Source: Candidatus Tepidifontimicrobium thermophilum (GTDB lineage Bacteria; Sysuimicrobiota; Sysuimicrobiia; Sysuimicrobiales; Sysuimicrobiaceae). From it: a DNA stretch of 64,000 nt. Positions 56,821-59,854 of this stretch are shown here, piece by piece. The notes below the pieces were generated by a model. The model was given only the letters and a program-made list of their open reading frames with translations, made no database searches and was not told the DNA's origin. Where the stretch lies: positions 1 through 64,000 of the forward strand of contig JAVKHO010000013.1 in the NCBI GenBank assembly GCA_031459915.1. Direction: 5' to 3'. The position numbers and the translations under genes are program-made. Each line of letters opens with the position of its first letter. Position 1 is the first letter of the stretch.

Positions 56821-57834
56821 ATGGACCTGTACGACATCACCATCATCGGTGCAGGCCCCACCGGGTTGTTCGCGGCTTACTACGCGGGGTTCCGGGCCCT
56901 GCGGACGAAGATCATCGACAGCCAGTCCGACCTGGGTGGTCAGGTCACCGCCCTGTACCCCGACAAGTACATCTACGACGTGGCGGGATTCCCCAAGATC
57001 CTCGGCAAGGACCTCATCCGCAACCAGATCGAGCAGGCCATGCAGTACAACCCCACGGTCGTCCTCAACGAGCGGGTGGAGGTCCTGGAACGGCTGCCCG
57101 ACGGCCACTACCGCCTGGTCACCCACACGGGCCAGGAGCACTTCACCCGGGTCGTGCTGATCGCCGCGGGGATCGGTGCGTTCACCCCCAAGAAGTACAA
57201 CCGCCCCGAGCTGGACCGGTACGAGGGGCGGGGCCTGTTCTTCTCGGTCCGCAACCGGGACGACTTCCGGGGCCGGCGGGTGCTGGTGGTGGGAGGCGGG
57301 GACAGCGCCCTGGACTGGGCCCTGAACCTGCTGCCCATCACGCGGGAGCTCACCCTGATCCACCGGCGGGACCAGTTCCGCGCCCACGAGGACTCCGTGC
57401 GCAAGCTTATGAGCTCGGAGGCCAGGGTCAAGCTCTTCTACGAGCTGAAGGCCCTGGAGGGGGACGAGCGGGTGGAGCGCGCGGTCATCTTCAACAACCG
57501 GACCAAAGAGGAGGAGGTCCTGGAGGTGGACGCGGTCCTGGCCTTCCTCGGGCTGGTGAGCAACCTGGGGCCCATCCGGGAGTGGGGGCTCCAGATCGAG
57601 GACGACTCCATCGTGGTGAACACGAAGATGGAGACGAACCTGCCCGGCGTGTACGCGGCCGGCGACATCACCACGTACCCCGGGAAGCTCAAGCTCATCG
57701 CCACCGCGTACGGGGAGGCAGCCACCGCGGTCAACAACGCCTACACGTACCTGAACCCGGGCGCCAAGGCCTTCCCCGGACACTCCAGTGCCATCATGGA
57801 GAAGAAGGAACGGGAGGCAGCCCGGGCCGGCTGA
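56821..57834 (+). CDS. TrxB-like ferredoxin--NADP+ reductase (YumC type)
   Basis: GAGPTG, LYPDKYIYDVAG, GGGDSALDW, HRR, AAGDI, KLKLIA; no CxxC. Confidence 0.9.
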   Translation: MDLYDITIIGAGPTGLFAAYYAGFRALRTKIIDSQSDLGGQVTALYPDKYIYDVAGFPKILGKDLIRNQIEQAMQYNPTVVLNERVEVLERLPDGHYRLVTHTGQEHFTRVVLIAAGIGAFTPKKYNRPELDRYEGRGLFFSVRNRDDFRGRRVLVVGGGDSALDWALNLLPITRELTLIHRRDQFRAHEDSVRKLMSSEARVKLFYELKALEGDERVERAVIFNNRTKEEEVLEVDAVLAFLGLVSNLGPIREWGLQIEDDSIVVNTKMETNLPGVYAAGDITTYPGKLKLIATAYGEAATAVNNAYTYLNPGAKAFPGHSSAIMEKKEREAARAG

Positions 57835-57858: not shown

Positions 57859-58524
57859 TCAGTCGCCGCCCCGGACGGCGGCCACCGGTTCCATCCTAAG
57901 AGTGCGCTTGGCCACCCACGCCAGCCAGCCGCCCACGGTCCACCGGGCGGGCTTCCGGGCCAGGTTGCGGAAGCCCACGGACAGGGCGTCCGCCACCGCC
58001 TGCTGCACGGCCTCCGGGGTGACGGGCCGGCCCAGCCGCAGGAGCTCGCGCTCCACCGCCCGTCGCAGGGCCGGCAGGTCCTCGTCCGCCAGCCGGTCGA
58101 AGGCCTCCCGGTCACCGGCCAGGGCCCGGTCCAGCAGCTCCCGTTCCTCCAGGAGCGTCCGCTGGTAAGCCTCCACCGCTTCCTCGGGCAGCGAGGCACG
58201 ACGGCGCTCGTGGGCGTGCTCCCGCCTGAGCTGGGCCTTGTACCGGGACAGCTGCTGCTCCAGGTCGTCGAAGGCGGCCCGGATCCAGCCCTCCGGGGTC
58301 GCGGACCGGTTGCGCCGGGCGTACAGCACCCGCCCGGGAAGGTACAGCCGGGCGCTGCCGGTGTACTCCTCCTTCCGGGCGGCCCGCTCCACCTGGACCT
58401 GCAGGTGCACGAGATCCGCCCGGAAGTGACGCAGGCGGCGCTGTAGCCGCGCCAGGGAGCGGTCCAAGACCTCGCGGGCGTACTCACCCAGCTCGAACCG
58501 CCGTGTGGTCACGTGCACTTCCAT
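57859..58524 (-). CDS. HPF/RaiA (S30EA) domain fused to an ECF-sigma region-2-like domain
   Basis: N-terminus MEVHVTTRRFEL...AAFDDLEQQLSRYK fits the HPF pattern; C-terminus ELLDRALAGDREAFDRL...GWLAWVA fits ECF sigma region 1.2/2. Confidence 0.7.
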   Translation of the reverse strand: MEVHVTTRRFELGEYAREVLDRSLARLQRRLRHFRADLVHLQVQVERAARKEEYTGSARLYLPGRVLYARRNRSATPEGWIRAAFDDLEQQLSRYKAQLRREHAHERRRASLPEEAVEAYQRTLLEERELLDRALAGDREAFDRLADEDLPALRRAVERELLRLGRPVTPEAVQQAVADALSVGFRNLARKPARWTVGGWLAWVAKRTLRMEPVAAVRGGD

Positions 58525-58982
58525 GCCGTCTCCTCCCCACTGAGTTCCTGCCAGGCCGGTTCCACCCCACACGTGCCGCACTCCGGCTCCTGCACCCCCA
58601 CCCACCGCACCGCTGCGTCCACCTGCTCCCAGTCCGGCTCCCCGGGGTGCGCCAGAACCCAGCCGGCGGCCACTTCCCCGCGACGGTCCAGCACCAGCAC
58701 CACCGCGTCCGCCTCCGGGCCGTACTGCCGGCGGGTGCGTCCCGTAGGGTCCCGCACCTGGGGGAACGGCGCCTCCAACCCTGCTTCCTCCTCGCGGACT
58801 CCCAGCGCCTCCACGCCCCAGGAGGACCACGCTCCGGCCCGCCGGCCCGCCGCCCGGGCCAGCTGGCGGCAGCTGAGGCAACCCGGACCGTGCAGGACCA
58901 GCACCACGTGCGCGTGCAGACGCCAACTCGGTAACGTCTGTCCCTGGCCGCCGTCCTCCACCCATACCGTCGCGGGTCTCAC
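58509..58982 (-). CDS. Redoxin (AhpC/TSA-like thioredoxin fold) protein with two CxxC motifs
   Basis: VVLVLHGPGCLSC, FPQVRDP.G, VLVLDRRGEV, C-terminal ECGTC; GTG overlaps the lipA stop. Confidence 0.62.
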   Translation of the reverse strand: MRPATVWVEDGGQGQTLPSWRLHAHVVLVLHGPGCLSCRQLARAAGRRAGAWSSWGVEALGVREEEAGLEAPFPQVRDPTGRTRRQYGPEADAVVLVLDRRGEVAAGWVLAHPGEPDWEQVDAAVRWVGVQEPECGTCGVEPAWQELSGEETAWKCT

Positions 58983-59854
58983 CGTACCGCCGCCCTCTGG
59001 ACCTGTTCGTCCGCGTGGTAGCTGCTGCGCACCAAGGGCCCGGACTCCACGTGGCGGAACCCCATCGCCAGGCCCAGCCGTTTGATCTCCGCGAACTCCT
59101 CCGGGTGCCAGTACCGGTGCACGGGCTCGTAGCCCGGGCCTGGGCTCAGGTACTGCCCCACGGTCACGATGTCGCAGCCCACGGACCGCAGGTCCCGGAG
59201 GGTGTCCACCACCTGGTCGAAGGTCTCGCCCAGGCCCACCATGAGGCCGCTCTTGGTCAGGCACGGGTATCCCCACCGCTTCACCCGCGCCAGCAGCTCC
59301 AGGGATCGGTCGTAGTTGCCCCCGCTGCGTACCCTCTTGAACACAGGCCGTACCGTCTCGATGTTGTGGTTGAGGATGTCGGGGCCGGCGTCCAGCACCG
59401 TCCGGAGCGCTTCCGGGTCGCCCTTGAAGTCCGGGATGAGGACCTCCACGGTGCAGTCGGGCTGGAGCTGGCGGATCCGGCGGATGGTCTGGGCGAACAC
59501 CGCGGCCCCACCGTCCCGGAGGTCGTCCCGGTCCACGGAGGTCACCACCGCGTGGCGCAGCCCCATGGCCGCCACCGCCCGCGCCACCCGCTCCGGCTCC
59601 CTCCAGTCCACCTCCGTGGGCAGCCCGTGGGCGATGGCGCAGTACGAGCAGTTCCGCGTGCAGACGTTCCCCAGGATGAGGAAGGTGGCGGTCCGCCGCT
59701 CCCAGCAGTCCCCGATGTTCGGGCAGCGCGCTTCCTCGCACACCGTGTGCAGCCGCTGGGAGCGCATGATGGCCACCAGCTCGCGGTAGTTGGGGCCGGA
59801 GGGCAGGCGGGCCTTCAGCCACGGCGGGCGCTGCGGGACAGGCGCGATAGCCAA
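58979..59854 (-). CDS. lipA: Lipoyl synthase
   Basis: CEEARCPNIGDC, CTRNCSYC, RSSY. Confidence 0.96.
   Translation of the reverse strand: MAIAPVPQRPPWLKARLPSGPNYRELVAIMRSQRLHTVCEEARCPNIGDCWERRTATFLILGNVCTRNCSYCAIAHGLPTEVDWREPERVARAVAAMGLRHAVVTSVDRDDLRDGGAAVFAQTIRRIRQLQPDCTVEVLIPDFKGDPEALRTVLDAGPDILNHNIETVRPVFKRVRSGGNYDRSLELLARVKRWGYPCLTKSGLMVGLGETFDQVVDTLRDLRSVGCDIVTVGQYLSPGPGYEPVHRYWHPEEFAEIKRLGLAMGFRHVESGPLVRSSYHADEQVQRAAVR

What the first reader, a model, noticed from the sequence alone, without database searches (positions are those of the whole stretch)
57859..58524. Ribosome hibernation factor (HPF/RaiA) fused to a lone ECF-sigma region-2 domain
Seen: the first ~100 aa follow the S30EA/HPF pattern, ending AAFDDLEQQLSRYKAQLR. 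After a charged linker comes EERELLDRALAGDREAFDRL...AVQQAVADALSVGFRNL...GWLAWVAKR, which matches ECF sigma region 1.2/2. The protein then stops, with no region-4 HTH and a degenerate DAED motif. Known: HPF binds 70S ribosomes, and sigma region 2 binds the RNA polymerase beta' clamp and the -10 element; long HPFs normally carry a dimerisation domain instead. Inference: one protein might link ribosome hibernation to RNA polymerase (a sigma decoy, or half of a split sigma). I know of no characterised example.
Basis: partly seen in the sequence, partly recalled or inferred. Interest (0 to 1): 0.78.

Follow-up and report, generated by a model that had tools for sequence, protein, structure and literature searches.

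The report
Hibernation factor with half a sigma
This real, conserved gene joins a ribosome-hibernation domain to the front half of a stress sigma factor; it is a shortened branch of an already reported but untested fusion family, and it likely protects idle ribosomes rather than steering RNA polymerase.

Summary
Observation confirmed. Window 58524-57859 (-) encodes 221 aa: an HPF/S30AE domain (residues 1-104) and an ECF sigma-2 fold (125-212), with no sigma-4. It is not a frameshift: 41 homologues of 201-252 aa share the architecture, both halves are under purifying selection, and sense reads cover it in one metatranscriptome. The fusion idea is not new. A 2025 preprint reports untested 'SigE-HPF' chimeras, and this scan has noted the full-length HPF-sigma2-sigma4 family on other DNA, including orf11 of the E. 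coli heat-resistance island. New here is a distinct sigma-4-less clade in Sysuimicrobiota and Chloroflexota, probably derived from the full-length family. Its sigma-2 has lost the polymerase-binding Asp and Gln (0/36 each), which argues against a sigma decoy, and conserves a basic/aromatic loop instead. Five of 7 Chloroflexota carriers also encode an HPF-less sigma2-sigma4 relative, usually coupled to a baeRF10 gene; the window's genome has none. Best reading (0.45): a second, stress-type hibernation factor whose sigma-2 domain is repurposed to cap ribosomal RNA, like the cold-shock domain of HPFcold. Binding of either ribosome or polymerase is untested.

The parts
57859..58524 (-). HPF-sigma2 gene, 221 aa (P0001)
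   Evidence: dN/dS 0.04-0.20 in both halves against 5 relatives; sense reads in run X5
58213..58524 (-). HPF/S30AE domain, residues 1-104
   Evidence: Pfam PF02482 E 1.6e-8; fold match to solved HPF/RaiA
58153..58212 (-). Helical, charged linker, residues 105-124; R107 and R109 invariant
   Evidence: alignment; model helices 77-111 and 114-135
57889..58152 (-). ECF sigma-2-like domain, residues 125-212; no sigma-4 follows
57988..58011 (-). Degenerate region-2.2 core-binding segment, residues 172-179 (AVQQAVAD where ECFs have DAEDxxQE)
   Evidence: gap-free register from W200; role of the DAED motif from PMC8999054 passages
57940..57957 (-). Conserved basic/aromatic loop R190-W195 between helices 2.2 and 2.3
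   Evidence: K 35/36, P 36/36, R 32/36, W 33/36 in alignment A1
58530..58536 (-). Shine-Dalgarno-like GGAGGAG
   Evidence: sequence
58509..58982 (-). Upstream 157-aa ORF with two CxxC motifs; overlaps the lipA stop and the start of the HPF-sigma2 gene
   Evidence: translation; no Pfam hit
58979..59854 (-). lipA (lipoyl synthase), end of a 2-oxoacid dehydrogenase gene run upstream
   Evidence: same order in relatives of two genera
56821..57834 (+). Convergent pyridine nucleotide-disulphide oxidoreductase gene

Best explanation
The gene encodes an HPF domain fused to a sigma-2 domain that has lost two of the three conserved polymerase-binding residues, and the protein likely acts as a second, stress-type ribosome hibernation factor rather than on RNA polymerase. 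Inferred steps: the HPF domain would plug the tRNA/mRNA channel of the 30S subunit; the helical linker would carry sigma-2 towards the mRNA exit; sigma-2, a single-strand nucleic-acid binder in ECFs, would use its conserved basic/aromatic loop to hold the 16S 3' (anti-Shine-Dalgarno) end or a neighbouring ribosomal protein and shield 70S monomers, as the cold-shock domain does in HPFcold. It probably arose from the HPF-sigma2-sigma4 family by loss of sigma-4.
For: Shown: both folds. HPF basic residues are largely kept: K/R at positions 26 (25/36), 29 (24/36), 94 (34/36), 96 (26/36), 100 (35/36); median net charge +5.5, against +5 for 9 comparison HPFs. R94 aligns with T. thermophilus Arg93, a 16S h44 contact. 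The genome keeps a separate canonical long HPF, as the preprint reports for chimeras. Three of 7 Chloroflexota loci have a baeRF10 gene within about 2 kb; others have USP, DUF2267 or ClpB genes alongside. baeRF-HPF linkage is published (PMC6514570 passages). The core-binding Asp and Gln are lost in 36/36. Isolated sigmaE region 2 binds single-stranded -10 DNA (PDB titles 4lup, 2map). In HPFcold the appended domain binds the anti-SD (PMC13392368 passages); the long-HPF linker passes the 16S 3' end (PMC6177447 passages). A rooted HPF-domain tree nests the short clade (92/84) inside the full-length family.
Against: No binding was tested; the anti-SD step is an analogy. Two basic positions of HPF helix 2 are reversed: canonical K87 is acidic in 32/36 (it aligns with Thermus Arg86, an h44 contact) and K/R90 in 29/36, and the conserved Tyr before helix 2 is lost. 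Solved, ribosome-bound HPFcold also has Asp at 87, but keeps Arg at 90. An acidic residue is kept at the third core-binding position (32/36) and often at -11 (E 20/36). Domain orientation in the model is unsure (pTM 0.51). The loop Trp and Arg are less conserved in the most distant members. In the window the gene ends a pyruvate-dehydrogenase/lipA run, not a stress operon. The tree root rests on a distant outgroup and 107 columns.
Confidence: 0.45

Rival explanations
1. Sigma decoy or bridge: sigma-2 binds the beta' clamp helices, blocks real sigma factors or tethers idle polymerase to hibernating ribosomes.
For: The sigma-2 fold and region-1.2 'L..AL.GD..AF' segment are well kept. Acidic residues remain at -6 (32/36) and -11 (E 20/36). 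The full-length relatives keep D/E at -10 in 35/40.
Against: Asp at -10 in 0/36 (H 21, Q 11, E 2, R 2) and Gln at -7 in 0/36, against 9/9 and 8/9 in the genome's own sigma-2 domains. An ECF lacking the acidic DAED motif, EcfP, is inactive until phosphorylated (PMC8999054); no Ser/Thr is conserved there in this family. No sigma-4 for a second contact.
Confidence: 0.2
2. Partner of a split system: the short protein is the HPF half of an HPF-sigma fusion that separated with a duplicated sigma-2, and it binds the HPF-less sigma2-sigma4 relative or titrates its zinc anti-sigma, so that free versus ribosome-bound protein sets a stress output (a PhyR-like switch).
For: 5 of 7 Chloroflexota genomes with the short gene hold an HPF-less sigma2-sigma4 of the same family (E 1e-34 to 1e-44), and a sixth a sigma-4-only ORF 1.4 kb upstream in the same apparent operon. 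In L031 that sigma precedes a zf-HC2-baeRF10 fusion about 2 kb from the short gene (zf-HC2 E 0.005, below cut-off).
Against: No such partner in the window's genome (96% complete; best partner-profile hit 36.5 bits, an ordinary ECF) or among listed matches of 94 Sysuimicrobiota genomes (best other match E 1.4e-20), yet the sigma-2 half is under purifying selection there. The sigma-4-only ORF has just one other homologue. One Chloroflexota genome (G098) shows none.
Confidence: 0.15
3. The sigma-2 half and linker are a replacement dimerisation module that pairs ribosomes into 100S particles.
For: It sits where long HPF has its dimerisation domain; a long amphipathic linker and three conserved tryptophans could form an interface.
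Against: No homology to the long-HPF C-terminal domain; the genome already has a long HPF; HPFcold keeps 70S monomers.
Confidence: 0.1
4. The HPF domain no longer binds ribosomes and the protein has another RNA- or protein-binding role, possibly tied to the lipA/dehydrogenase operon.
For: Charge reversals at 87 and 90 and a new conserved basic patch (R50, R59, R70, R71) not found in canonical HPFs; fixed position after lipA in two genera.
Against: The lipA context is limited to one family; neighbours vary elsewhere. Repeated linkage to baeRF10.
Confidence: 0.1

Closest known systems
'SigE-HPF' / 'HPF-SigE' chimeric HPF isoforms (bioRxiv 10.1101/2025.11.04.686544, outline, passages and sections 9-10 read; named again in PMC13392368, passages read)
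   Same: HPF domain fused to an ECF-sigma-like part in place of the dimerisation domain; coexists with canonical HPF; variable locus, often near aeRF1-like genes; no functional test seen in what I read.
   Different: The widespread form found here has sigma2 + linker + sigma4 (about 315-385 aa); this clade stops after sigma-2 and has lost the region-2.2 Asp. I could not see the preprint's Fig. 6, Fig. S2 or supplements and did not fetch pEc78, so whether it includes a sigma-4-less form is unknown; the main text does not mention Chloroflexota or Armatimonadota.
orf11 of the tLST/LHR heat-resistance island (PMC8290217, PMC8407380; passages read)
   Same: Belongs to the full-length family (hhalign 99.9%, 337 columns), which links to the short family at 99.9% over 211 columns.
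   Different: 381 aa with sigma-4; direct match to the short family is negligible (probability 1%). Described as unlike known proteins; its deletion did not change membrane lipid oxidation after chlorine.
HPFcold of Coxiella burnetii (PDB 9T0Z; PMC13392368 passages)
   Same: HPF domain plus a borrowed nucleic-acid-binding stress domain; best PDB hit of the family profile (E 1.2e-4); shares Asp at helix-2 position 87.
   Different: Its second domain is a cold-shock OB fold on a six-residue linker and is shown to bind the anti-SD; here it is a helical sigma-2 on a ~20-residue linker, untested.
Long HPF, short HPF and RaiA/YfiA (Pfam PF02482)
   Same: N-terminal fold and most basic residues.
   Different: No dimerisation domain; helix-2 K87 and K/R90 reversed; below the TIGR00741 cut-off (27.5 against 40.9 bits).
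ECF sigma factors (sigmaE/AlgU/BldN) and the PhyR sigma-like mimic
   Same: Sigma-2 fold, gap-free register from helix 2.2 to the region-2.3/2.4 Trp.
   Different: No sigma-4; DAED/QE motif degenerate. Even full-length relatives lack the GTV-SR recognition-helix motif (GT 0/44) and often score on the PhyR sigma-like model.

Membership tests
HPF/RaiA (S30AE) family | S30AE profile and fold | tested here: met
HPF/RaiA (S30AE) family | Basic rRNA-contact residues on helices 1 and 2 | tested here: inconclusive
   R26, R29, R94, K96, R100 kept; positions 87 and 90 acidic; HPFcold also has D87
HPF/RaiA (S30AE) family | Binds the 30S tRNA channel and inhibits translation | not testable with these tools
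   needs pelleting, translation assay or cryo-EM
Long HPF | C-terminal dimerisation domain | tested here: not met
   no such Pfam hit at E<=1; the C half folds as sigma-2
ECF sigma factor | Sigma-2 domain | tested here: met
ECF sigma factor | Sigma-4 helix-turn-helix in the same chain | tested here: not met
   stop after residue 221; 12 of 13 related loci stop at the same place, one runs off its contig; no sigma-4 downstream
ECF sigma factor | Acidic DAED / D-x-x-Q-E core-binding motif in region 2.2 | tested here: not met
   D 0/36, Q 0/36, D/E at the last position 32/36
HPF-SigE chimeras (preprint) | HPF fused to a SigE-like part instead of the dimerisation domain | tested here: met
HPF-SigE chimeras (preprint) | Coexists with a canonical HPF at another locus | tested here: met
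   C8:44633-45199
HPF-SigE chimeras (preprint) | Frequently adjacent to Balon-like (aeRF1-like) genes | tested here: inconclusive
   baeRF10 near 3 of 7 Chloroflexota copies, not near the window's copy; whether baeRF10 is a Balon or an active release factor is open
HPF-SigE chimeras (preprint) | Same domain extent as the preprint's figure | not testable with these tools
   figures and bioRxiv supplements not available
Split sigma / PhyR-type sigma mimic | Cognate sigma-4 or sigma/anti-sigma partner encoded in the same genome | tested here: inconclusive
   none found in G000; present in 5 of 7 Chloroflexota carriers, sigma-4 only in a sixth

The most novel reading that the evidence does not exclude
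The protein is a ribosome-tethered sigma fragment: its sigma-2 still docks on the beta' clamp (or on the anti-sigma of its sigma2-sigma4 paralogue), so the pool of idle ribosomes directly sets polymerase availability or stress transcription, and the HPF-sigma family, including orf11 of the heat-resistance island, is a physical coupler of translation and transcription shut-down.
Probability: 0.2. Interest if true: 0.8.

Novelty: new variant of a known kind. Interest (0 to 1): 0.5.

Why it matters
HPF-sigma chimeras are widespread and ride on stress islands, yet I found no test of them in the papers searched. The sigma-4-less clade is a natural deletion experiment: it shows that HPF plus sigma-2 is kept by selection without the -35 reader and without the usual polymerase-binding residues, so sigma-2 has some other job. 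At 221 aa, and with close relatives in hot-spring samples, it is a handy object for cryo-EM, and the answer bears on orf11 of the E. coli/Klebsiella heat-resistance island. A sigma domain reused as a ribosome-binding module, or a direct ribosome-polymerase link, would both be new.

Tried and rejected
Frameshift or truncation artefact: rejected. Search for longer forms of 442-2000 aa found none, weak evidence; the 315-385 aa forms came only from the profile search. A weak match of the C half at C8:21098-20871 beside a baeRF10 gene lies inside a radical-SAM gene: spurious. Candidate stand-alone sigma-4 ORFs in the genome: C33's end overlaps C2's start, one ECF cut by the assembly; C32 is an ordinary ECF with a frame break; C4 looks like YlxM (recalled, not tested). 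The first Pfam scan of the upstream gene used the wrong frame; repeated correctly, no hit. No sigma70-type promoter or terminator found. ESM Atlas: related 192-240 aa clusters with S30AE in 19-34% of members, leads only, not followed. tblastn of the short protein against plasmids: one weak hit. Runs X3 and X4 gave 2 reads each, none on the gene; X1 contigs cover it without strand information. PMC7764885 (passages) gave no residue data. Literature searches; only two papers hold HPF-SigE/SigE-HPF. PMC10901736 passages were read for Balon operons. A findings search for a sigma-4-less form returned nothing.

Full report
Observation. The - strand of 58524..57859 is an open 221-aa frame holding the quoted motifs, with GGAGGAG 5 nt upstream. 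Residues 3-100 match Pfam Ribosomal_S30AE above its cut-off (E 1.6e-8). The C half gives only weak sigma hits by sequence. An AlphaFold2 model from 36 of the family's 42 sequences (mean pLDDT 86.5, pTM 0.51) matches solved HPF/RaiA over residues 1-104 (Z 13.5) and ECF sigma-2 over 125-212 (BldN Z 9.6, AlgU Z 9.4, sigmaE region 2 rmsd 2.0 A over 85 columns). Both domain calls hold.

It is a real gene, not a broken sigma. 41 homologous clusters of 201-252 aa cover 82-100% of the query at 41-96% identity. Of 13 genomic loci, 12 stop at the same place and one runs off its contig; none has sigma-4 downstream. Against 5 close relatives dN/dS is 0.04-0.17 for the HPF half and 0.13-0.20 for the sigma-2 half. 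In one stranded hot-spring metatranscriptome (X5, about 5% read, 109 reads on 4.5 kb) the gene has sense depth 1.7-5.1 and opposite depth 0-0.9, similar to its neighbours; two other raw-read runs gave nothing on it. Record titles place close relatives in Sysuimicrobiota/Armatimonadota and distant ones in Chloroflexota. Nine of 94 genomes of the window's phylum carry it, 8 of them in its own family. The genome also has a canonical long HPF and a baeRF10 gene on another contig.

The wider family. A profile search gave 979 representatives at E<=0.001. I scanned 85 of the 150 listed, chosen as longer or full-coverage hits; 47 of 85 carry both S30AE and Sigma70_r4_2 at E<=0.01. Named ones come from Acidobacteriota and Binatia, and a full-length query matches 302 plasmid records, mostly Proteobacteria. 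The short and full-length profiles align at 99.9% over 211 columns. One member is the gene between hdeD-GI and trx-GI on an E. coli plasmid, which by gene order is orf11 of the tLST island (PMC8290217); another lies among Hsp20, groESL and dnaK. On a tree of the shared region, 25 short and 31 full-length rows fall on two sides of one branch (SH-aLRT 100). Rooted on 8 canonical HPFs, the HPF-domain tree puts 16 short rows (92/84) inside a paraphyletic set of 21 full-length rows; full-length was one group in 2% of bootstrap trees. Loss of sigma-4 is therefore likely, not proven. Rows for both trees were hand-picked subsets.

Functional surfaces. In gap-free register from W200, the ECF motif D-x-x-Q-E reads H/Q-x-x-A-D: Asp 0/36, Gln 0/36, acidic last position 32/36. 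Nine of the genome's ten sigma-2 hits were translated (the frame-broken one left out): Asp 9/9, Gln 8/9, Glu 7/9, read by eye. Full-length relatives keep D/E at the first position in 35 of 40 rows that have the Trp. The acidic DAED motif is needed for beta' binding (PMC8999054 passages). The short family instead conserves R-K-P-A-R-W in the loop between helices 2.2 and 2.3; that this loop reads the -10 strand in ECFs is recalled, while PDB titles show region 2 alone binding single-stranded -10 DNA. The full-length sigma-4 lacks the GTV-SR helix motif (GT 0/44) seen in the genome's own ECFs, so even the parent may not be a working sigma. In the HPF domain, helix-1 and late helix-2 basic residues are kept and net charge is normal, but positions 87 and 90 are acidic where 8 of 8 canonical long HPFs are basic. 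Thermus Arg86 and Arg93 contact h44 (PMC6177447); the second is kept, the first reversed, as in ribosome-bound HPFcold.

Context and partners. In the window's family the gene ends a dehydrogenase-lipA-CxxC-protein run. In Chloroflexota neighbours vary; 3 of 7 loci have baeRF10 close by, and single loci have USP, DUF2267 or ClpB. Five of those 7 genomes encode an HPF-less sigma2-sigma4 of this family, one has a sigma-4-only ORF in the same apparent operon, one shows none. Four of the five partners lie directly before a baeRF10 gene (three by Pfam, one partial gene by likeness), two amid Hsp20, BON, PsiE, DUF2267 or ferritin-like genes. No such partner was found in G000 or among the 150 listed matches (111 weaker ones unlisted, at most 22 candidates scored per genome) in 94 Sysuimicrobiota genomes. 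The short protein is thus maintained without it.

Mechanism. Shown: architecture, selection on both halves, low-level sense transcription, loss of the core-binding motif, kinship with a stress-island family. Inferred: ribosome binding, and a role of sigma-2 at the 16S 3' end by analogy with HPFcold (PMC13392368) and the path of the long-HPF linker. I put this at 0.45, a polymerase decoy or bridge at 0.2, a split or partner-switch system at 0.15, a dimerisation module at 0.1 and a non-ribosomal role at 0.1. Co-folding was not available.

What is known. bioRxiv 10.1101/2025.11.04.686544 reports previously uncharacterised HPF-SigE chimeras that coexist with canonical HPF and often lie next to Balon (section 10); PMC13392368 repeats the name. 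These were the only two papers holding the term. I saw no experiment and no mention of a sigma-4-less form, but could not see the preprint's figures or supplements, which may bear on this. Earlier notes of this scan describe the full-length fusion and orf11 on other DNA (read after I had made those links); none listed describes the short clade.

Verdict. A genuine, conserved HPF-sigma2 protein; a new variant of a reported but untested kind. Interest 0.5.

Noticed in passing
L032:5575-6720 (NZ_CP061755.1): orf11 of the tLST/LHR heat-resistance island is a member of the full-length HPF-sigma2-sigma4 family; already noted by earlier scan findings.
   Followed up: partly
L089, L090, L091, L092, L110 (Chloroflexota G094-G097, G101): HPF-less sigma2-sigma4 genes of this family, mostly coupled to baeRF10, in stress clusters with Hsp20, BON, DUF2267, PsiE or ferritin-like genes.
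   Followed up: partly
L031:1872-3248: Putative zinc-finger (zf-HC2, anti-sigma-like, E 0.005) fused to a baeRF10 domain, directly behind the HPF-less sigma.
   Followed up: no
L030:2940-5416: Order sigma4-only ORF, baeRF10, small gene, HPF-sigma2: looks like a circularly permuted HPF-sigma/baeRF operon; the sigma4 ORF has a poor start and only one other homologue.
   Followed up: partly
L024:4700-4981 and L030:4464-4742: A 92-93 aa protein without Pfam hit (shared GYRDPPG motif, 38% identical) directly precedes the short gene in two loci; not found in the window's genome.
   Followed up: no
window 58509-58982 (-): 157-aa twin-CxxC ORF overlapping lipA and the HPF-sigma2 start; no Pfam hit.
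   Followed up: partly
L011 (G038:C13:9172-9540): A ~120-aa HPF-only protein that groups with the short clade on the tree (long branch) and has no sigma part; followed by a phosphoribosyltransferase-like ORF (label recalled).
   Followed up: partly
G000:C32:101815-102409: An ECF sigma whose sigma-2 and sigma-4 parts lie in different frames (pseudogene or assembly error).
   Followed up: no
G000 C2 start and C33 end: The two contig ends overlap within one ECF sigma gene and probably join.
   Followed up: no
G000:C8:21887-23086 (L035:6888-8087): baeRF10 gene about 21 kb from the canonical HPF, followed by a radical-SAM gene.
   Followed up: partly
P0049: 270-aa family member with a ~50-residue acidic insertion in the linker, suggesting that linker length is not fixed.
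   Followed up: no
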